From: a virus
Length of the DNA: 64,000 nt
Reading direction: 5' to 3' (one strand)
Virus record (IMG/VR): IMGVR_UViG_3300047476_001426
Location: 32,001 to 96,000 of that record
Numbering within the stretch: the stretch's first letter is position 1; each line of letters opens with the position of its first letter. A model generated the notes under the pieces. That model saw only the letters and a program-made list of their open reading frames with translations. It ran no database searches and was not told the origin of the DNA. A program made the position numbers and the translations under genes. Positions 15,071 to 51,167 of this stretch are shown here, piece by piece.

Positions 15071-15271
15071 ATGATAATCGTAAACGTCAGTAAAGAGAAG
15101 AACCTTGAATCTGCATTAAAAAAATACAAATACAAGGTTCAAAAGACTAAACAAAATGATAAATTGAGGGAGAAACAGGAATATACCAAACCCTCAGTTG
15201 CTAAAAGAAGTAAAAAGTTAAAAGCCATCTACAAACAACAATTATTCACGAATCAAGAAAAATCAAATTAG
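15071..15271 (+). CDS. rpsU: Phage-encoded 30S ribosomal protein bS21
   Basis: 66 aa, basic; V..EKNLESALKKYK.K...LREKQEYTKPSVAKR matches the bS21 pattern. Confidence 0.9.
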   Translation: MIIVNVSKEKNLESALKKYKYKVQKTKQNDKLREKQEYTKPSVAKRSKKLKAIYKQQLFTNQEKSN

Positions 15272-26594: not shown

Positions 26595-27008
26595 ATGGAA
26601 TATACAAAAGATTTGATACTTGTTCGTGGTATCCCGGGTTCTGGTAAATCGACTTTGGGTGAGGTAATATTATACACCCCAAATAATCCAATGAAACCTT
26701 TATCTGCGGATGATTACTTCATGGATAAAGAAGGTAATTACAACTTTGACCCCTCAAAAATAAGGGAGGCCCATAACGACTGCCAACAAAGATGTGCAAA
26801 CCTGATGATGAATTCAGTTGTCAGAGTTGTGGTTTCAAATACATTCACTCAAGAATGGGAAATGGAACCATATTTTGAAATGGGTCGTCGATATGGTTAT
26901 AGAGTCCATACAATCATTGTTGAAAATAGACACGGTGGTGAGAATGTTCATGGGGTCCCTGAAGACAAAATAGACATAATGAAAAACCGATTTGAAGTTA
27001 AGTTGTGA
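26595..27008 (+). CDS. P-loop polynucleotide-kinase-like protein (AAA_33)
   Basis: RGIPGSGKST Walker A, SADDYF, VVVSNTF...EMEPY, HGVPED. Confidence 0.8.
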   Translation: MEYTKDLILVRGIPGSGKSTLGEVILYTPNNPMKPLSADDYFMDKEGNYNFDPSKIREAHNDCQQRCANLMMNSVVRVVVSNTFTQEWEMEPYFEMGRRYGYRVHTIIVENRHGGENVHGVPEDKIDIMKNRFEVKL

Positions 27009-28075
27009 TAGATAGACTGAAAAAATATCATGAAGATGGGTTGTTAATGAGACAAACACACCCAACTAAAGATTTGTACATATGGAATTATACCCCAAGA
27101 GTACAGTATGAATCTTTATGGGATGATATTACTACGCAATGTCGTGGACTCATTACAACTCATTCAGGTGAAGTCATATCAAGACCATTCGGTAAGTTTT
27201 TTAACTATGAAGAGGTTATTGATAAGGATTTAATTCCATGGGACAGTGAGTATGCTCACGTTCAAACAAAAATGGATGGTTCTCTTGGTATATTGTTTTT
27301 TTATGATGGTGAATGGATTATGGCAACAAGAGGTTCATTTACATCTGAACAATCAATTCGAGGATTAGAGATTATAAAATCAAAATACGATTTGAGTAAG
27401 TTTTCTGAGAAATTCACTTATCTATGTGAAATAATTTATCCTGAGAATAGAATCGTGGTAAATTACGGTGAGGATAAAATCACATTCTTATCTATAACCA
27501 CTCCTGAATCAGAATTAAATTGGGCAACATCAATAGCAATATTCCATTCATCAGATATCAAAGAAGAGGACATTGTTGATAGTACTATGGTGACCTTCAA
27601 TAAAGAAACTTTTGAAACTTACAAAAATCTAAACATACCAAATGAAGAGGGATTTGTTATTAGGTTCTACCCTTCTAATTTTAGAATGAAAATAAAGTTT
27701 GAGGAGTATGTTCGTTTACATAGAATATTAACGAATGTGTCTAATAGAGATATATGGGAAGTGCTCCGTACCAATGGTGATATGAAGGAAATACTTGATG
27801 GTGTACCAGATGAATTTTACGATTGGGTTCGCAAAACTAAAGAAGATTTATTATTTCAATACAAACACTTGGAACGTGAATATCAATGGATTTTTAAAAT
27901 CATTAATAGAGCACCCAACATAGAAAATCGAGCGGTTTTCGCGGAATACGCAAAAAGATATAAACACCCTTCAATATTGTTTAATATGTTGGATAATAAG
28001 GATTACTCTCAACAAATTTGGAAGTTAATCTATCCTTCGTATTCGAAACCATTTAATACAAATGAAGATAATTAG
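27005..28075 (+). CDS. T4 Rnl1-like RNA ligase
   Basis: KMDGSLG adenylation motif, PFGKFFN, EGFV, FRMKIK. Confidence 0.88.
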   Translation: MIDRLKKYHEDGLLMRQTHPTKDLYIWNYTPRVQYESLWDDITTQCRGLITTHSGEVISRPFGKFFNYEEVIDKDLIPWDSEYAHVQTKMDGSLGILFFYDGEWIMATRGSFTSEQSIRGLEIIKSKYDLSKFSEKFTYLCEIIYPENRIVVNYGEDKITFLSITTPESELNWATSIAIFHSSDIKEEDIVDSTMVTFNKETFETYKNLNIPNEEGFVIRFYPSNFRMKIKFEEYVRLHRILTNVSNRDIWEVLRTNGDMKEILDGVPDEFYDWVRKTKEDLLFQYKHLEREYQWIFKIINRAPNIENRAVFAEYAKRYKHPSILFNMLDNKDYSQQIWKLIYPSYSKPFNTNEDN

Positions 28076-33035: not shown

Positions 33036-33821
33036 TTATTTAGGGAATACACCCTTTTTTATCATTCTTAATAGAATTCTAGAACACGCAATATCTAATG
33101 CTTTTTTGGTGCTAATCCCTATTGTCGATTGATTAAATTTAACTTCACTTAAATTATCGTCATTTAGTAAACTTAATTCTCTAACGGTAACCGCTTCACC
33201 CAATCCACTAGCAGCAATTATTTGACCCGTTTCCGCATCGGTAAATCTAACTTGTAACCCTAATCTTGTAACAACAGTGTTTTTAACACCATTACTAAGA
33301 TTAACCGTCTCATCCTCACTCACTGAAAATTCATAAACTTCAATTGTAACAAAATAGTGTGCTAAACGTATTTTTCCTCTACCATCTAATGTGTCATAAC
33401 TAATACCCGCTTGAGAGGCTTGGTATTGTTTCACCATTCTATTTTTGATTTCGGTTTTGTCCTCAGTAAATGTGAATCTATTTAAATTCTCCAAATATTC
33501 TAATGTTATATTTGCCACACCTAAACCCACCTTCTTTTCTTTTAATTCAGGATATTGTTCGTATACCTCATCACTGATACCAATTTTTAAAATTTGTATT
33601 GGTATTTGGGGGCCATCGTAATCCATTAAAGAATCGATACTAACATTAGTCTCAAATGATGCTTTATATTGTTCTGTTTGAGTTTTACCAACAACCTGTG
33701 CACTTACAGTATTAGCAAAAACAAACATCAATACAAACCATAGTATTATCAGAATTACTGGTGATAATAGTTTTTCTATGACAAATTTTTTCATTTTACT
33801 CGGGGTCTTGTATTTTACCAC
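33036..33821 (-). CDS. CsgG/HfaB-like periplasmic or outer-membrane protein
   Basis: Signal peptide; LENLNRFTFTE, AHYFVTIEVYEF, LQVRFTDAETGQIIAASGLGEA resemble the CsgG fold. Confidence 0.6.
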   Translation of the reverse strand: MVKYKTPSKMKKFVIEKLLSPVILIILWFVLMFVFANTVSAQVVGKTQTEQYKASFETNVSIDSLMDYDGPQIPIQILKIGISDEVYEQYPELKEKKVGLGVANITLEYLENLNRFTFTEDKTEIKNRMVKQYQASQAGISYDTLDGRGKIRLAHYFVTIEVYEFSVSEDETVNLSNGVKNTVVTRLGLQVRFTDAETGQIIAASGLGEAVTVRELSLLNDDNLSEVKFNQSTIGISTKKALDIACSRILLRMIKKGVFPK

Positions 33822-37684: not shown

Positions 37685-37754
37685 GGGCCTGATGTCAACG
37701 GCAGACCGTCTGATTTGCAATCAGAACGATTGGGTTCGATTCCCACAGTGTCCA
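37685..37754 (+). tRNA. tRNA-Ala(TGC), irregular acceptor stem
   Basis: TCTGA-TTTGCAA-TCAGA anticodon arm, GGTTCGATTCC T arm, G3:U70-like pair; bulge in acceptor stem. Confidence 0.65.
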
Positions 37755-40800: not shown

Positions 40801-40999
40801 GAAACTTCCTTACAGAAGGTGATAATGCTTCACTGAAAGGACTACTGACTTCCAAGTGGGTCGCAACCACAATCGGAAGGTACGACACGGCTCAGTAGAC
40901 TCTGTAACGGACCCTGCTCTATGGTGCACACATAACAGGTGATGGGGAACAAACCATCGGTAAAATCTAAACCCACGGTGAGCGTGGAAGGAATGTTTC
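40801..40999 (+). ncRNA. Unclassified multibranch structured RNA
   Basis: End-to-end stem GAAAC.TTCCTT/AAGGAA.GTTTC; internal TTACAGA/TCTGTAA, CTACTGA/TCAGTAG and several hairpins. Confidence 0.55.
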
Positions 41000-41085: not shown

Positions 41086-41225
41086 AAGATAGTGGTCACT
41101 CTCACAATGAAAGTCGACAAAGTAGTTGTGAGGTTCATAGTGTTCAGCACCCTCGGCCAGTGCACTGATAAAACTCAGAAGAAGCCGTTAAGATTGGAGC
41201 GAGACGGGTACTCCATCACTATCTT
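41086..41225 (+). ncRNA. Unclassified structured RNA
   Basis: Closing stem AAGATAGTG/CACTATCTT; internal CTCACAA/TTGTGAG and TGGAG/CTCCA hairpins. Confidence 0.5.
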
Positions 41226-44781: not shown

Positions 44782-45243
44782 ATGACAAAATTTAGAACAT
44801 TGTACGGAACACCCATAACTGACGTTATTGGTTACATCAAAGATTATTTGGTTGATAAAACTGATGTTGAGATATTAATTGGTTCGGATTCACAATCATT
44901 TAGTAATTCAAAAACAGTTTACGGGGTGGTTATTGCTCTTTACACAACAGGTAAAGGTGCACACGTACTATGTACTAAAGATATCACACCATTTGAAAAA
45001 GACACATCAAGTAGATTAATGACCGAAGTTTGGAAAGCTGTTGAAGTTGCCGAACATTTGAGAAATAATGGTTTACCAAAAGCCACATGGATTGATATAG
45101 ATTTAAATCCCGACCCAAGATATAAATCAAACAAAGTTTTGAGACAAGCAGTTGGTTTGGTTGAAGGTATGGGATACAAGGTAAGATACAAACACGCAGG
45201 TGCTATGGTGACTTACAGTGCAAACCATTTGGTAAGAATTTAA
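44782..45243 (+). CDS. YkuK-like RNase H-fold protein
   Basis: ILIGSDSQ, RLMTEV, WIDIDLN..SN..GLVEGMGY pattern. Confidence 0.7.
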   Translation: MTKFRTLYGTPITDVIGYIKDYLVDKTDVEILIGSDSQSFSNSKTVYGVVIALYTTGKGAHVLCTKDITPFEKDTSSRLMTEVWKAVEVAEHLRNNGLPKATWIDIDLNPDPRYKSNKVLRQAVGLVEGMGYKVRYKHAGAMVTYSANHLVRI

Positions 45244-45310
45244 AAAAAAGATAAGAGGGCTTGTTTTTTTAAAAAAGTCCTTTTATCTTTGTAATGTAAT
45301 ATTTATAGTC

Positions 45311-45652
45311 ATGAGAAAAAACTAGATTAACAGACTTGTAGTCGTAACCCGTAAAGACTTAAAACCCGGGTACCAAATTGCACAATCGGGACATGCAATC
45401 TCTCAGTTCATTTTAGAACACCCCGAATTGTCGAAACGATGGAACAACAGTTATCTGATTTCATTATCCATCGATTCAGAAGAAAAATTACAACAATTAC
45501 TTTTTAGGTTAGAAGATTCAGGAATACCTGTATCTCATTTCATTGAACCCGATATCGGGAATCAATTAACATCTATTTGCTTTCTCGAAACCGAGGAAAC
45601 AAAAAGATTCACATCATCATTGCCTTTATCCTTAAAGGAATATAATAAATAA
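45311..45652 (+). CDS. Pth2-like peptidyl-tRNA hydrolase with in-frame TAG at codon 5
   Basis: MRKN*INRLVVVTRKDLKPGYQIAQSGHA...EPDIGNQLTSI; VVVTRKDL..G..IAQ..HA is the Pth2 N-terminal catalytic motif. Confidence 0.75.
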
Positions 45653-45672
45653 ACAATTTAATCTTAAAAATT

Positions 45673-45927
45673 ATGAAGTAGATTAACAAAAAATGTGAAA
45701 TTATTTTTCACTTCAACAAGAAACACTTGGAAAATCCGACGATTCCAATGTGGGTTGTGAAATGTCGGGGCGACACTTATTATGTTCATCATGTTGATGT
45801 CTCACCGGGTGTGGGATTCTCAACAAAAGAAACTCCCGATAACCCTCATACCAAAGGGAGTATAAAATTCAAAGCAAATTTGGAAATTGAGGAAAACAAT
45901 AACATAATAACAGCTAAAATTTTTTAA
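45673..45927 (+). CDS. Hypothetical protein with in-frame TAG at codon 3
   Basis: MK*INKKCEIIFHFNKKHLENPTIPMWVVK...; A-rich leader before the ATG; frame continuous with ORF 45727-45927. Confidence 0.65.
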
Positions 45928-45929
45928 AA

Positions 45930-46268
45930 ATGAAAAATACAAAACACAACCCAACAATGATGATTAAATCATCTTTCTCGAACAAGATTCATAATCTTTT
46001 AGGTATCAAACACAAACCATATTCAAAAGAGTGGTTTGAAGGTATGAAACAAAGAAGAGAATTGACTAATGAAGAAAAGTCTAAACTTTTTGATGAAATT
46101 ATGAAGGTGTATGTTGAAACATCCGACGAATTGGTAAACTATCGTAAAGATAGGAGATTAAAAAAATGGGTCAACAAAAAACGTTTAGAAAGAGGATATG
46201 TCCCAAAGAAAAAAACAAAAAAAGAAGATTATGAAAAAAATCTTCAAAATGATTTGGAGATATCTTAA
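45930..46268 (+). CDS. Basic hypothetical protein
   Basis: 112-aa ORF coupled to the previous gene. Confidence 0.55.
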   Translation: MKNTKHNPTMMIKSSFSNKIHNLLGIKHKPYSKEWFEGMKQRRELTNEEKSKLFDEIMKVYVETSDELVNYRKDRRLKKWVNKKRLERGYVPKKKTKKEDYEKNLQNDLEIS

Positions 46269-46385
46269 TTAATATCTACTTTTGAATTGTGATTGAAAAG
46301 TGACAGTGACAAATAGACCAAGTGGGGCACACGTAAAATTGTATCAGTCGAAAGTCGAGGTGATAGACCACCATCAATCACAAAC

Positions 46386-46457
46386 GGTCTCGTGGTGTAG
46401 CGGTAACATTACGGTCTCTAAAACCGATAGTCACGGGTTCAAATCCCGTCGGGACCA
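46386..46457 (+). tRNA. Amber suppressor tRNA (anticodon CTA)
   Basis: GGTCTCG/CGGGACC acceptor; CGGT-CTCTAAA-ACCG anticodon arm (CTA at 46418-46420); ACGGG-TTCAAAT-CCCGT. Confidence 0.88.
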
Positions 46458-46564
46458 CAACAAAAAAAAATATTTTTAAAAAAAATTACAAAAATACTTG
46501 TTTTTTAAAAAAAGTTTTGTATCTTTGTACCACAACAATAAATAATACATTTAATACGACATTT

Positions 46565-48637
46565 ATGACAACAAGAAATTTAGTTGCATTTCAAAAGAAT
46601 TTGGTGTGTTCACCAAACGACGGTCAAGATAACAGAATCGCTGTAGCAACCGTACAATCCCACCTAATGCAATGGGGTTACATGTTAGACGAAGACGCTT
46701 TCTTCGCATTAGCCAAATCAGATTTATCGTTTATTCAAAACTTCAATGATGAAGTGTTGAATCATTTGAAAAATGTAATGGGAGGTAAACGTAATTACCA
46801 ACCTTTATATAAAAACTTCCCACAAGAAGTGATGGTTATGTCCGACTTCGAATTGTACATGAATGCAATCATTCATTATTGGAGTAACGGTCAATGGGAA
46901 CCATCTACCCATACTTACGAAAAAGAAATCAAGTTTGAGAAAATCAAATACAACTTGATTAAGTATGGTACTTCGGAAAGATTCTCAAAAATCTTCACTG
47001 ACTTAGTGTCAATAAACACATCGTTAACTCCTCAAGACCTTGAGATTGTTAAATGGTTTGTTGAGAGCGGTGAAACATTAGTCTTCCCTGACACAATTCC
47101 ATTCAAAGAGAATTTGTGTACATTGGCGGCAATGGGAATCTCGGGATTACCAGTTAAGACTTCAACCGATGTGTTAAGAATCGCCGTTCATCTTTCAGGT
47201 GGTGATATTAGTTTACCAAAAGTTCCTCAAAAGGAAATTAGGGCAAGTGTATGGACCACCCAAAGGATTACGAATCCTGAAAGAGAAAAGTTTAAATTCA
47301 AGAAATTCTCTCGTAAAGAGAGAAAATACATCTTGGGTTTACTGGAGAACACAAACTGTGACCCACGTGAAATGGTTTTAAGAGACCAACGTTGGGTACG
47401 TTTAGGTGAAATATTACACCCGGGTGAATATAAAAACCAATTCCCTAAGTCTTTCGAGGCCTTCAACAAAATCCGAAACGAGAAAGTTAAATCTTGGTTC
47501 GCACTTGTTAACGAAGGTTTCAATAAAGGATTAGAGAATGGTTTGAGAGTTTTGTCTCAAAGACCTGGTGAGTTCTCTCGTAGAATGGATTGGTTGGTTC
47601 GTACATATCCAAAAGATATTGAACTGATTATGAAGTTCTTCGGAGAAGCGGTAAAAGGTACATCAAACAAAGTATTGTTTGAAGTTTACACTCACTTTGA
47701 AAATCGTACTGAACCTATGGATAATAGGTCTATTATGATAAAAGGGGCGAGAAAACGTACCACATTACCATCACTACCAGCAATCCCTAAAGAGATTGTG
47801 GAAACCATCCACTCTAAATTATTCGAAACACTTAGAGATAAGTTTTCGGTAATGGAATCTTTAGGTAACTGTTGGATTGATGAGGAATTGAAAAAAATTC
47901 CTTTACCAACCAACATGAGAAGTATGAACTTCTCAACTAAACCAACAATCAGAGGTCAAAGAGTTCCACTCGATAACCCTGATGCAAAAGTTATCAGACC
48001 GTTTGTTCATTGGATGGATAAACGTGGTAGCGAAGACTTGGATTTAAGTGTTACGTTTGTTGGTGAAAAGGTGTCAGAAGTACTATCTTTCAGTAACTTG
48101 AGAGTTGGTAAATCTTGTCACTCAGGGGATGTGAGACATAGACAGGGTCCTTGTGCCGAGTACATCGACATTGATATTCAAGATGCATTGAAAAGAGGAT
48201 TCAAATATGCAGTCATTGATGTGAGAAACTTCAATGGAGGTACTTTGAGTTCACTTGAAACGTCTTTTGGTATCATGGAACGAGAACACCCTGAATCAAA
48301 CAAAACATGGTTACCTGAAACAATTTCAAATTGTCAATCATTGGAATCAGCGTCGTCAAACACATTGATTTCTATTATTGACCTTGAAACTAAGGAGTAC
48401 ATCATGTTGGATATTGATTCATCAGGTTTCGTTACCGCAAGAGGTGACTTCAAACACACTCTTAAAGTGATTCAACAATACGCTGAATTACCAAAAGTAA
48501 GTGTTTATGACCTTATTCTTCTACACGTAGAAGGTCGAGGAAAACAAGTTACCCTTGATGAAAATGTCGACGTACACTTCAAGTACGAGGACTTCTGTTA
48601 CTCTTATGAGGAAACAGGAAAATTAATGGGTGTGTAA
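46565..48637 (+). CDS. Large alpha-helical protein with C-terminal TerD-like domain (Ro/TROVE-like candidate)
   Basis: ATG at 46565 after a TATCTTTG promoter (46520); EDLDLSV..HSGDV..AEYIDID TerD-type motifs; N-terminal helical region unassigned. Confidence 0.6.
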   Translation: MTTRNLVAFQKNLVCSPNDGQDNRIAVATVQSHLMQWGYMLDEDAFFALAKSDLSFIQNFNDEVLNHLKNVMGGKRNYQPLYKNFPQEVMVMSDFELYMNAIIHYWSNGQWEPSTHTYEKEIKFEKIKYNLIKYGTSERFSKIFTDLVSINTSLTPQDLEIVKWFVESGETLVFPDTIPFKENLCTLAAMGISGLPVKTSTDVLRIAVHLSGGDISLPKVPQKEIRASVWTTQRITNPEREKFKFKKFSRKERKYILGLLENTNCDPREMVLRDQRWVRLGEILHPGEYKNQFPKSFEAFNKIRNEKVKSWFALVNEGFNKGLENGLRVLSQRPGEFSRRMDWLVRTYPKDIELIMKFFGEAVKGTSNKVLFEVYTHFENRTEPMDNRSIMIKGARKRTTLPSLPAIPKEIVETIHSKLFETLRDKFSVMESLGNCWIDEELKKIPLPTNMRSMNFSTKPTIRGQRVPLDNPDAKVIRPFVHWMDKRGSEDLDLSVTFVGEKVSEVLSFSNLRVGKSCHSGDVRHRQGPCAEYIDIDIQDALKRGFKYAVIDVRNFNGGTLSSLETSFGIMEREHPESNKTWLPETISNCQSLESASSNTLISIIDLETKEYIMLDIDSSGFVTARGDFKHTLKVIQQYAELPKVSVYDLILLHVEGRGKQVTLDENVDVHFKYEDFCYSYEETGKLMGV

Positions 48638-48744
48638 TATCACCCACTAAGTTCTTTGAAATTTTGTAATAGGGGTTAATCAGGCGTAAATGGTTAACAT
48701 AAAAATGTAGTGAAGCTCGTTCCCTTCCTTACTAAAAAATATTA

Positions 48745-50743: not shown

Positions 50744-50770
50744 TTATCTTTGTTTCGTTCTTTGATTTAT

Positions 50771-51167
50771 GGGGGTGTATGGAATCGATTGGCATTGATA
50801 TCCTAAATGGGCACGTAGTCGGACTTCATCTACGACTTAAATCTACGGTGGAAAAATTCAAACGGCAACGTTTACAACAACATGGAAGTAGCAGGTCTTC
50901 TTGCAACTTCTAAAGTTGCTGCCTAATCGGCAGTAACTAACGGGTCGGTGGACACATAACCTTGGAACAGAAGTCCTTACAGTGTAATACCACTTAGAGT
51001 GTTAGGAGAATGGCCTGACTGTCTCTTTAAATTATAGTCAGGAACAGGTTTGTTGTTTTTCTGTGTATGAAATCAAATATTTGTTGGTTGTGAATAACCA
51101 AATAAACGTGTAGTCCATTTATGGTATGATGAGCAAGACGCGGGTTCGAAACCCGCCACCTCCACCA
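50771..51167 (+). ncRNA. ssrA: tmRNA
   Basis: GGGGGTG/CACCTCC-A-CCA acceptor with G3:U70, T arm GCGGG-TTCGAAA-CCCGC, tag ORF 50864-50926 GNVYNNMEVAGLLATSKVAA*. Confidence 0.92.

What the first reader, a model, noticed from the sequence alone, without database searches (positions are those of the whole stretch)
46277..46457. Separately promoted amber suppressor tRNA, apparently Trp-derived
Seen: the anticodon arm CGGT-CTCTAAA-ACCG differs by one base from that of the phage tRNA-Trp (CGGT-CTCCAAA-ACCG), but the acceptor stem and A73 differ. It has its own TAnnTTTG promoter (46277-46284) and lies outside the two attenuated clusters. A 97-nt element closed by a perfect 10-bp stem (TTGTGATTGA 46287-46296 / TCAATCACAA 46374-46383) sits between promoter and tRNA. 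Established: the E. coli Trp-derived amber suppressor Su7 inserts Gln as well as Trp. Inference: this is the trans-acting half of the amber switch, and the upstream structure may control its maturation. Side effect: TAG-terminated genes such as rpsU (15271) could be extended.
Basis: partly seen in the sequence, partly recalled or inferred. Interest (0 to 1): 0.8.

Follow-up and report, generated by a model that had tools for sequence, protein, structure and literature searches.

The report
Phage amber-suppressor tRNA gating own cassette
A large lake-water phage that otherwise uses the normal genetic code carries a tRNA that reads the UAG stop codon, in a small removable cassette whose first two genes (one a peptidyl-tRNA-hydrolase-like enzyme) have UAG a few codons after the start, so they are probably made only while this tRNA overrides the stop.

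Summary
Window 46386-46457 (+) is a well-formed tRNA with anticodon CUA (ARAGORN; Rfam tRNA 63.7 bits), preceded by TACTTTTG and a 97-nt element closed by a perfect 10-bp stem.

It is the last gene of a 1.24-kb cassette (about 45245-46496) flanked by direct repeats of a promoter-like region. Close relatives lack the cassette, including two 93-100% complete 310-kb genomes.

The first two cassette genes have an in-frame TAG near the start: a PTH2-fold hydrolase at codon 5 and an 84-aa ORF at codon 3. That TAG is kept in every copy found, while the codons around it vary.

The rest of the 136-kb record, head genes included, reads in the standard code.

Across 57 distinct PTH2-like genes from diverse phages, 49 have a suppressor tRNA within 2.5 kb and 27 carry the early TAG.

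So the "trans-acting half of an amber switch" reading is supported by comparison only; nothing is experimental. A Trp origin cannot be shown.

The upstream element is a conserved structured RNA with a covarying closing helix. It also occurs away from suppressor tRNAs and is missing from some cassettes, so a dedicated maturation role is not supported.

I found no published description of the pairing. This scan has noted the same module many times on other DNA.

The parts
45239..45293 (+). Left copy of the direct repeat that flanks the cassette. It holds a promoter-like stretch (CTTGTTTTTTTAAAAAAGT...TATCTTTGTA), with TATCTTTG at 45284-45291.
   Evidence: the repeat finder families D1 and D3, spacing 1236-1237 nt, 78-83% identity. 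The cassette-less relative L003 joins window 45244 to about 46497.
45311..45652 (+). Gene A: PTH2-family peptidyl-tRNA-hydrolase-like protein, ATG-AGA-AAA-AAC-TAG(45323-45325)-ATT..., 113 codons if the TAG is read. There is no ATG/GTG/TTG for 34 codons after the TAG.
   Evidence: Pfam PF01981, 26 bits against a cutoff of 23. PDB profile hit 2zv3, E 1.5e-5. AlphaFold model pLDDT 92.6 and Foldseek TM 0.73-0.78 to archaeal Pth2 and human Bit1. TAG conserved in all copies.
45673..45927 (+). Gene B: 84-codon ORF of unknown function, ATG-AAG-TAG(45679-45681)-ATT... There is no canonical start for 15 codons after the TAG.
   Evidence: TAG at codon 3 in all 9 homologous copies plus L094. No Pfam, PHROG or Atlas lead.
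45930..46268 (+). Gene C: 112-aa basic protein of unknown function, without an in-frame TAG.
   Evidence: Open frame; conserved in cassette copies at 38-95% identity; no family hit.
46277..46284 (+). Promoter-like TAnnTTTG motif (TACTTTTG), with a TTTG 20 nt upstream.
   Evidence: Read directly. The motif is kept at this position in relatives (TATTTTTG, TAATATTG, TATCTTTG). It is not enriched in the window. Inference only.
46287..46383 (+). 97-nt structured element: an 8-10 bp closing helix, a highly conserved interior and an invariant 3' hairpin GGTG-N6-CACC.
   Evidence: 17 homologues aligned (A4). All 8 closing pairs show compensatory changes and 44 columns are invariant. The covariance model finds one copy in the window at 119.9 bits. 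No Rfam family at E <= 10.
46386..46457 (+). tRNA with anticodon CUA (46418-46420): G1-C72, A73, 5-nt variable loop, canonical T loop, no encoded CCA.
   Evidence: ARAGORN; Rfam RF00005, 63.7 bits, full-length alignment; orthologues in 10 or more independent contigs.
46476..46529 (+). Right copy of the flanking direct repeat. It is also the promoter-like region of the downstream 690-aa gene (TATCTTTG at 46520-46527).
   Evidence: the repeat finder D1 and D3.

Best explanation
The tRNA is a working amber (UAG) suppressor. It is the decoding half of a self-contained accessory cassette in a standard-code jumbo phage.

Proposed course:
1. The tRNA is transcribed from its own promoter-like site behind a structured leader.
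2. RNase P cuts it out.
3. It is given CCA, which the gene does not encode.
4. A host synthetase charges it, most likely with Gln or Lys, because U35 with a CUA anticodon favours these in E. coli.
5. It reads the UAG at codon 5 of the PTH2-like gene and at codon 3 of the next small gene.

Both proteins would therefore be made only when, and in proportion as, the suppressor is active.

PTH2-like genes sit beside suppressor tRNAs across very diverse phages, with or without the gate. The hydrolase is therefore most likely a functional partner of the tRNA. It might recycle or limit peptidyl- or aminoacyl-suppressor tRNA, or clear peptidyl-tRNA produced when stops are overridden. The early UAG would then be a feedback sensor.

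Shown by comparison: the tRNA gene, the conserved in-frame TAGs, the joint gain and loss, and the standard code elsewhere. Inferred: expression, charging, read-through, the hydrolase's substrate and the direction of the feedback.
For: - The tRNA is real and canonical.
- The cassette is a presence/absence unit flanked by direct repeats.
- Both gate TAGs are conserved in all copies, down to 42-59% protein identity, while the 1-3 codons between ATG and TAG vary freely (MRKN, MKRH, MKKQ, MKNY, MTH, MK, ML...). The stop at this position is always TAG, in genomes where TAG ends only 4-6% of genes of 100 aa or more.
- The base after the TAG is a purine in 28 of 30 distinct contexts (A in 22). From published E. 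coli work this is the favourable context for amber suppression.
- Of 27 gated PTH2-like genes, 24 have a tRNA(CUA) within 2.5 kb. In 17 of the 57 distinct genes it is the only tRNA there.
- G000, G003 and G004 carry the PTH2-like gene and the tRNA together. G001 and G002 (93-100% complete) and G011-G013 have no PTH2-like gene, and G001 and G002 were also scanned whole and have no tRNA(CUA) (positive control).
- In G000, G003 and G004 the only convincing start-proximal gates are the two cassette genes.
- There are no internal in-frame TAGs in conserved genes. Major head, portal and terminase genes are intact.
- A distant phage (L095) has its TAG at codon 33 of the PTH2-like gene, with the tRNA 31 nt downstream and its neighbours in the standard code.
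Against: - There is no expression, charging or proteomic evidence.
- The codon after the TAG is ATT or ATA in 17 of 27 gates. A tiny upstream ORF with re-initiation at AUU/AUA could therefore explain part of the pattern without read-through.
- About half of the PTH2-like genes next to suppressor tRNAs have no TAG at all, so the gate is not needed for the partnership.
- The phage still ends real genes in TAG (S21, RNA ligase and others), so strong suppression would have a cost.
- Only 41% of this genome is in hand.
Confidence: 0.7

Rival explanations
1. This is ordinary phage stop-codon recoding (code 15, as in crAss-like and Lak phages). The tRNA mainly serves many TAG-containing late genes in the unseen 59% of the genome, and the cassette TAGs are just two of them.
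For: Only 41% of the genome is held. All three cassette-bearing records cover the same part of the reference genomes. Lak phages, which are TAG-recoded, also carry a PTH2-like homologue.
Against: - Major head, portal, terminase and about 160 other genes in 136 kb read in the standard code.
- There are no internal TAGs opposite sense codons of relatives.
- Complete relatives use the standard code.
- Five other module-bearing genomes show no gain from reading TAG as sense in 60 kb each.
- TAG still ends real genes here.
Confidence: 0.1
2. The early TAGs are true stops of 2-5-codon leader ORFs, and genes A and B re-initiate at the adjacent AUU/AUA. The tRNA acts on something else, such as host or phage genes that end in UAG.
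For: ATT or ATA follows the TAG in 17 of 27 gates. ATG-AAR-TAG resembles minigenes such as lambda bar, which load peptidyl-tRNA hydrolase (established knowledge).
Against: - The codon after the TAG is AAC, ACA, AGA, AAT, GTA or CTG in other lineages, and none of these is a start codon.
- The leader stop is always TAG, never the far commoner TAA.
- The gate co-occurs with tRNA(CUA) in 24 of 27 cases.
- L095 and L129 have the TAG deep inside the conserved domain.
Confidence: 0.12
3. The tRNA is a decoy or spare part against host tRNA-cutting defences. The PTH2-like enzyme clears peptidyl fragments of cut tRNAs, as proposed for jumbo-phage PTH2 (PMC7824862). The CUA anticodon makes the tRNA nuclease-proof rather than serving to decode.
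For: The phage carries 26 other tRNAs, a tmRNA, a T4-type RNA ligase and an RNase H-like gene. PTH2 in jumbo phages was interpreted this way.
Against: This does not explain why the anticodon is specifically CUA in 43 of 44 linked tRNAs, nor why the linked genes carry in-frame TAG.
Confidence: 0.05
4. It is a decaying or mutated tRNA gene with no function.
For: None beyond its absence from close relatives.
Against: It has a canonical cloverleaf at 63.7 bits. The CUA anticodon is conserved across 44 distinct sequences, with compensatory stem changes between them.
Confidence: 0.02

Closest known systems
Stop-codon recoding in phages with phage-encoded suppressor tRNAs (TAG read as Gln, code 15; crAss-like, Lak and others; bioRxiv 10.1101/2021.08.26.457843, PMC9523058)
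   Same: A phage of a standard-code host carries a tRNA(CUA) and keeps in-frame TAG in its own genes, so translation of those genes depends on the phage tRNA. A 'code change module' next to the recoded genes has been described.
   Different: Here the rest of the genome, structural genes included, is in the standard code. The only TAG-containing genes are two small genes in the tRNA's own cassette. The TAG sits at codons 2-6. The conserved partner is a PTH2-like hydrolase, not a synthetase or release factor. None of the recoding papers searched mentions peptidyl-tRNA hydrolase.
E. coli Su7 (supU), tRNA-Trp with anticodon CUA
   Same: The anticodon arm is identical in form..GGU-CUCUAAA-ACC.. (own knowledge for Su7; the phage tRNA-Trp arm is compared).
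   Different: The acceptor stem, discriminator (A73, not G73), D arm details and T arm are not those of the phage's tRNA-Trp. Whole-molecule identity is 0.67, no better than to Phe, Asn or Arg.
prfB (RF2) autoregulation through an in-frame UGA
   Same: A translation-related protein whose own synthesis passes through an early in-frame stop codon that reports on how that stop is being read.
   Different: prfB uses +1 frameshifting and senses its own product. Here a separate tRNA reads the stop, and the direction of any feedback is unknown.
Jumbo-phage PTH2 (PMC7824862) and phage lambda bar minigenes with host Pth
   Same: PTH2-type hydrolases were noted in jumbo phages. Very short ORFs such as ATG-AAR-TAG are the classic producers of peptidyl-tRNA that need a hydrolase (own knowledge).
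   Different: That paper does not report the link to suppressor tRNAs or the in-frame TAG.
Phage T4 stable RNAs species 1 and 2 (rnaC, rnaD) in the tRNA cluster; freshwater-1 RNA (RF02979)
   Same: For the 97-nt element: a small structured RNA of unknown function lying inside a phage tRNA transcription unit, flush against tRNA ends, so that tRNA-processing enzymes would release it (own knowledge for T4). A freshwater-1 RNA lies in this window's tRNA array.
   Different: There is no sequence or model match. Rfam gives no hit at E <= 10 for 46150-46560.
Promoter-flanked mobile gene cassettes of T4-type phages (PeSL cassettes)
   Same: A small gene set bounded by direct repeats of a promoter region, present or absent between close relatives. 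The comparison rests on my own knowledge.
   Different: Different phage group and promoter type. The mobility mechanism was not tested.

Membership tests
tRNA (Rfam RF00005) | Cloverleaf scoring above the family's gathering score, with canonical D and T loops | tested here: met
   63.7 bits against 29, model positions 1-71 of 71; also called by ARAGORN.
Amber suppressor tRNA | Anticodon CUA | tested here: met
   CTA at 46418-46420, conserved in orthologues.
Amber suppressor tRNA | Is aminoacylated and inserts an amino acid at UAG in vivo | not testable with these tools
   Indirect support only: conserved in-frame TAG in linked genes.
tRNA-Pyl (ARAGORN's label) | Pyl-type shape: 6-bp anticodon stem, 3-nt variable loop, short D loop, one base between the acceptor and D stems | tested here: not met
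   The Rfam alignment shows the standard shape: two bases (U8, G9), a 5-bp anticodon stem and a 5-nt variable loop. pylS and pylBCD were not searched for.
Su7-type suppressor (tRNA-Trp with a changed anticodon) | A tRNA-Trp body (acceptor stem, G73, T arm) with only the anticodon changed | tested here: not met
   Only the anticodon arm matches. The acceptor is GGTCTCG/CGGGACC with A73, against ACGGGTG/CACCCGT with G73.
Code-15 (TAG-recoded) phage | Many genes, typically late ones, with in-frame TAG; coding density rises when TAG is read as sense | tested here: not met
   No such gain or TAG-split genes in 136 kb. Head genes are intact. 59% of the genome is unseen.
PTH2 peptidyl-tRNA hydrolase (PF01981), gene A | Sequence above Pfam's gathering score, and the PTH2 fold | tested here: met
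   26 bits against 23. PDB 2zv3, E 1.5e-5. Model pLDDT 92.6 with TM 0.73-0.78 to 2zv3, 1q7s, 3erj, 1xty.
PTH2 peptidyl-tRNA hydrolase (PF01981), gene A | Hydrolyses peptidyl-tRNA; catalytic residues in place | tested here: inconclusive
   The invariant columns include D11, H23 and D76 (numbered from the first residue after the TAG). They resemble the archaeal motifs, but this was judged by eye only. There is no assay.
Theta / HDV-like ribozyme next to phage tRNAs (PMC10879173) | Cleavage site within 5 nt of a tRNA 3' end; nested double pseudoknot with a catalytic C | tested here: not met
   The element lies 5' of the tRNA. The sequence after the tRNA is an A/T run. No HDV-type Rfam hit. Definition taken.
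freshwater-1 RNA (RF02979) | Match to the Rfam model | tested here: not met
   No hit at E <= 10 in 46150-46560, whereas the true copy at 40903-40965 scores 72.5 bits.

The most novel reading that the evidence does not exclude
The cassette is a natural, self-contained genetic-code switch in phages that otherwise use the standard code. A suppressor tRNA and a PTH2-type hydrolase form a feedback loop through a start-proximal UAG. The hydrolase is made only by read-through and in turn recycles or restrains the suppressor. This would set a controlled level or time window of stop-codon override in the infected cell, and would explain why many standard-code phages carry suppressor tRNAs at all.
Probability: 0.25. 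Interest if true: 0.85.

Novelty: new variant of a known kind. Interest (0 to 1): 0.7.

Why it matters
Phage suppressor tRNAs are known from phages that recode many late genes. Why standard-code phages carry them has had no answer.

Here the tRNA has identifiable clients: two genes in its own cassette. It also has a conserved protein partner, a PTH2-like hydrolase, across very different phages. One of them is cultured: Mycobacterium phage Myrna, where I confirmed the pairing. The idea can therefore be tested at the bench.

If read-through is confirmed, this would be a compact natural example of gene control by a private stop-codon reading. It would also be a ready-made orthogonal tRNA-and-gate pair.

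It matters for annotation too. Gene callers truncate these genes: the ESM Atlas holds gene B only from residue 23, and Myrna's tRNA(CUA) is annotated as tRNA-Ser.

Tried and rejected
- **Genome-wide TAG recoding.** I tested stop-set ORF statistics, TAG-split ORF pairs and tblastn of relatives' proteins for stops inside alignments. Nearly all stops fell at alignment ends or in antisense frames. The candidates at genome 111892 (5' UTR) and 13435 (antisense to a real gene) were spurious.
- **Nucleotide similarity to deposited phages.** None found for 45900-48700.
- **The 97-nt element as a known RNA.** No Rfam hit. It is not a theta/HDV-like ribozyme, because those lie 3' of tRNAs. I saw no hammerhead core by eye.
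- **The element as a decayed copy of the tRNA-like 'Cys(GCA)' gene** that precedes the suppressor in L011, L015 and L053. Rejected, because L110 and L111 have both elements in tandem.
- **The element's two AGACC boxes pairing with the tRNA 5' end (GGUCU).** Rejected, because relatives whose tRNA starts with GGCUC keep AGACC, and other copies have no tRNA behind them.
- **Many hits of the 17-nt motif search** were coding sequence (an RGDRPP peptide) and were discarded.
- **Stop codon and tRNA changing together.** The one UCA tRNA locus (L164) shows no TGA gate, so this test was uninformative.
- **TAG-stop depletion in cassette-bearing genomes.** Orthologue pairs give 1-3 TAG stops in the cassette-bearing genome against 3-7 in the cassette-less one. 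The numbers are too small to count.
- **Gene B function.** Pfam, PHROGs and the ESM Atlas gave nothing.

Full report
**What is there**

- Window 46386-46457 (+) is a canonical tRNA with anticodon CUA at 46418-46420. ARAGORN calls it. The Rfam tRNA model scores 63.7 bits over its full length, against a gathering score of 29.
- It has G1-C72, discriminator A73, a 5-nt variable loop, a standard T loop and no encoded CCA. ARAGORN's 'Pyl' label only reflects the anticodon; the shape is not that of tRNA-Pyl.

**Setting**

- The window is bases 32001-96000 of a 136,485-bp IMG/VR virus record, 33% G+C, estimated 41% complete.
- Relatives are jumbo phages of about 310 kb from lake metagenomes. One has terminal repeats and is rated 100% complete.
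- The window holds 26 other tRNA matches, a tmRNA (50771-51167) and a freshwater-1 RNA. It also holds major head, portal and large terminase genes.

**The code is standard**

- Treating TAG as sense gives no special gain in open frames, and TAG-split frame pairs are not in excess.
- TAG ends 12 of 163 greedy ORFs.
- Proteins of two cassette-less relatives, aligned to this record and to two other suppressor-bearing records, show no internal TAG opposite a sense codon. The stops seen lie at alignment ends or in antisense frames.
- All three suppressor-bearing records cover the same third of the reference genome, so about 170 kb remains unseen.

**The cassette**

- Comparison with relatives shows a clean presence/absence unit. 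L003 (95-97% nucleotide identity on both flanks), L004, L005 and L014 join window 45244 to about 46465-46497. L010, L011, L015, L051, L053 and L054 have the intervening 1.2 kb.
- The unit is bounded by direct repeats of a promoter-like stretch, 45239-45293 and 46476-46529, 1237 nt apart. Recombination between such repeats would explain its gain and loss.
- Inside are three ORFs and the tRNA.
- Gene A (45311-45652) reads ATG AGA AAA AAC TAG ATT AAC... After the TAG comes a PTH2-type domain, with no canonical start codon for 34 codons.
- Gene B (45673-45927) reads ATG AAG TAG ATT AAC..., with no start codon for 15 codons.
- Gene C (45930-46268) has no TAG.
- Gene A passes Pfam's PTH2 threshold and hits archaeal Pth2 in a PDB profile search. 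Its model (pLDDT 92.6) superposes on Pth2 and Bit1 structures with TM 0.73-0.78.

**The gates are conserved**

- Every copy of the cassette keeps the TAG in both genes, including copies at 59-71% protein identity. The codons between ATG and TAG change freely.
- With a profile of nine members (A3) I fetched 80 viral loci holding 57 distinct PTH2-like genes, 35-97% identical to this one.
- Of the 57, 49 have a suppressor tRNA within 2.5 kb (48 CUA, one UCA). It is often 4-60 nt behind the stop codon, and in 17 of the 57 it is the only tRNA there.
- Of the 57, 27 carry a TAG 1-4 codons after the start (the second to fifth codon), and 24 of these have the tRNA in the fetched stretch. Two more have a TAG deep in the domain.
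- In L095 the TAG is at codon 33, the tRNA is 31 nt downstream, and the neighbouring genes are in the standard code.
- The base after the gate TAG is A in 22 and G in 6 of 30 contexts.
- In G000, G003 and G004 a genome-wide scan finds no other convincing start-proximal gate.
- Relatives without the cassette have no PTH2-like gene. These include genomes rated 93% and 100% complete, which were also scanned whole and have no tRNA(CUA) (the same query matched 5 of 5 carriers).
- Five distant carriers (127-364 kb) are in the standard code in 60 kb sampled from each.

**Reading**

- The tRNA's evident clients are the two gated genes of its own cassette.
- The PTH2-like gene is a conserved partner of suppressor tRNAs even where there is no gate. 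This points to a functional tie between the hydrolase and the tRNA, with the early UAG acting as a sensor of suppressor activity.
- Expression, charging, read-through and the enzyme's substrate are all inferred.
- The main rival is a 2-5-codon leader ORF with re-initiation at AUU/AUA; ATT or ATA follows the TAG in 17 of 27 gates. It fails in three ways. In some lineages AAC, ACA, AGA, AAT or GTA follows the TAG. It does not explain why the stop is always TAG. It does not explain the linked tRNA(CUA).

**Origin and identity of the tRNA**

- Only the anticodon arm matches the phage's tRNA-Trp (16 of 17 bases). Over the whole molecule Trp (0.67) is no closer than Phe, Asn or Arg. The D arm is as close to tRNA-Gln.
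- The GGU-CUCUAAA-ACC arm recurs in linked suppressors of unrelated phages, whose discriminators vary between A, U and G.
- That arm is also the arm of E. coli Su7, long regarded as near-optimal for UAG reading (own knowledge). Convergence is therefore as likely as descent.
- The inserted amino acid cannot be read from the alignments, because the gate lies in an unconserved N-terminus.

**The 97-nt element**

- It is a real, conserved structure. Seventeen homologues align with 44 invariant columns. All eight pairs of the closing helix show compensatory changes, in three or four sequence classes. A 3' hairpin GGUG-N6-CACC is invariant.
- It occurs in two places, always on the tRNA strand. One is between the promoter-like motif and the suppressor tRNA, or before a tRNA-like 'Cys(GCA)' gene that precedes the suppressor. 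The other, in other phages, is 7 nt after tRNA-Leu(UAA) with no tRNA behind it.
- Some cassette copies keep only a short hairpin of the same stem sequence (L010). Others have a different hairpin (L052, L098).
- No Rfam family matches. A covariance model finds no further copy in the window or in four relatives' genomes.
- It lies on the wrong side of the tRNA for a theta ribozyme.
- Most likely it is a small RNA released by tRNA-processing enzymes, like the T4 species 1 and 2 RNAs. Its function is unknown, and a role specific to this tRNA is not supported.

**Side effects of suppression**

- S21 (15071-15271) ends in TAG-A and would gain 16 residues.
- Two larger TAG-terminated genes have TAA at once or one codon later.
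- Cassette-bearing genomes have about half the TAG stops of their orthologues, but the counts are too small to weigh.

**Literature and earlier notes**

- The recoding papers I could search do not mention peptidyl-tRNA hydrolase. A jumbo-phage survey notes PTH2 but not the tRNA link or the TAG.
- Homologues occur in cultured phages. In Mycobacterium phage Myrna, gp84 is followed 130 nt later by a tRNA(CUA) that the record calls tRNA-Ser.
- After I had reached this reading, a look-up showed that this scan has noted the same amber-gated PTH2/suppressor module many times on other DNA. Those notes agree with what I found, but they are not independent evidence.

Noticed in passing
window 50771-51167 (+): Phage-encoded tmRNA (Rfam 98.4 bits). 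ARAGORN did not call it in the window but gives the tag peptide GNVYNNMEVAGLLATSKVAA in relatives. It is preceded by TATCTTTG at 50745 and is present in relatives with and without the cassette.
   Followed up: partly
window 40903-40965 (+): freshwater-1 RNA (RF02979, 72.5 bits, just above the gathering score) inside the tRNA array, directly before tRNA-Arg(TCT).
   Followed up: partly
window 41087-41225 (+): Another hairpin-closed stretch of about 135 nt (AGATAGTG ... CACTATCT) between tRNA-Arg(TCT) and tRNA-Pro. The tRNA array seems to hold several structured spacers.
   Followed up: no
window 37685-37754 (+): A weak extra Rfam tRNA match (31.8 bits) that ARAGORN does not call, at the head of the tRNA array.
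   Followed up: no
window 15071-15271 (+) and 27005-28075 (+): Phage-encoded ribosomal protein S21 (PF01165) ending in TAG-A. A T4-type RNA ligase 1 gene (PF09511) ends in TAG followed at once by TAA.
   Followed up: partly
L011:3755-3832, L015:3236-3307, L053, L105, L110, L111 (relatives): A tRNA-like gene directly upstream of the suppressor tRNA in some cassettes: 7-bp acceptor stem, U73, anticodon loop YCGCAAG (GCA, but with C33), T loop TTTAAAT/TTTGAAT. ARAGORN calls some copies tRNA-Cys. L094 has four tRNA-Cys(GCA) calls and no CUA tRNA next to gated A and B genes.
   Followed up: partly
L239 (Mycobacterium phage Myrna NC_011273.1, record 33036-33593): gp84 is a PTH2-like gene. ARAGORN finds a tRNA with anticodon CUA 130 nt downstream that the record annotates as tRNA-Ser. 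The frame upstream of the annotated GTG start reads GTG-TAG-GTG.
   Followed up: partly
L112/L026:436-1814: Two PTH2-like genes in tandem, each with an early TAG (MKNS*ITRL..., MNT*RLIT...), upstream of one tRNA(CUA).
   Followed up: no
L113:1707-2489: A 260-aa gene directly upstream of a gated PTH2-like gene also starts MK-TAG-V..., so the early-TAG gate extends to other genes in some lineages.
   Followed up: no
G003 around 104031 (-): An orthologue of a 226-aa TAG-terminated gene has an extra TAG 8 codons before its end, and the alignment continues past it.
   Followed up: no
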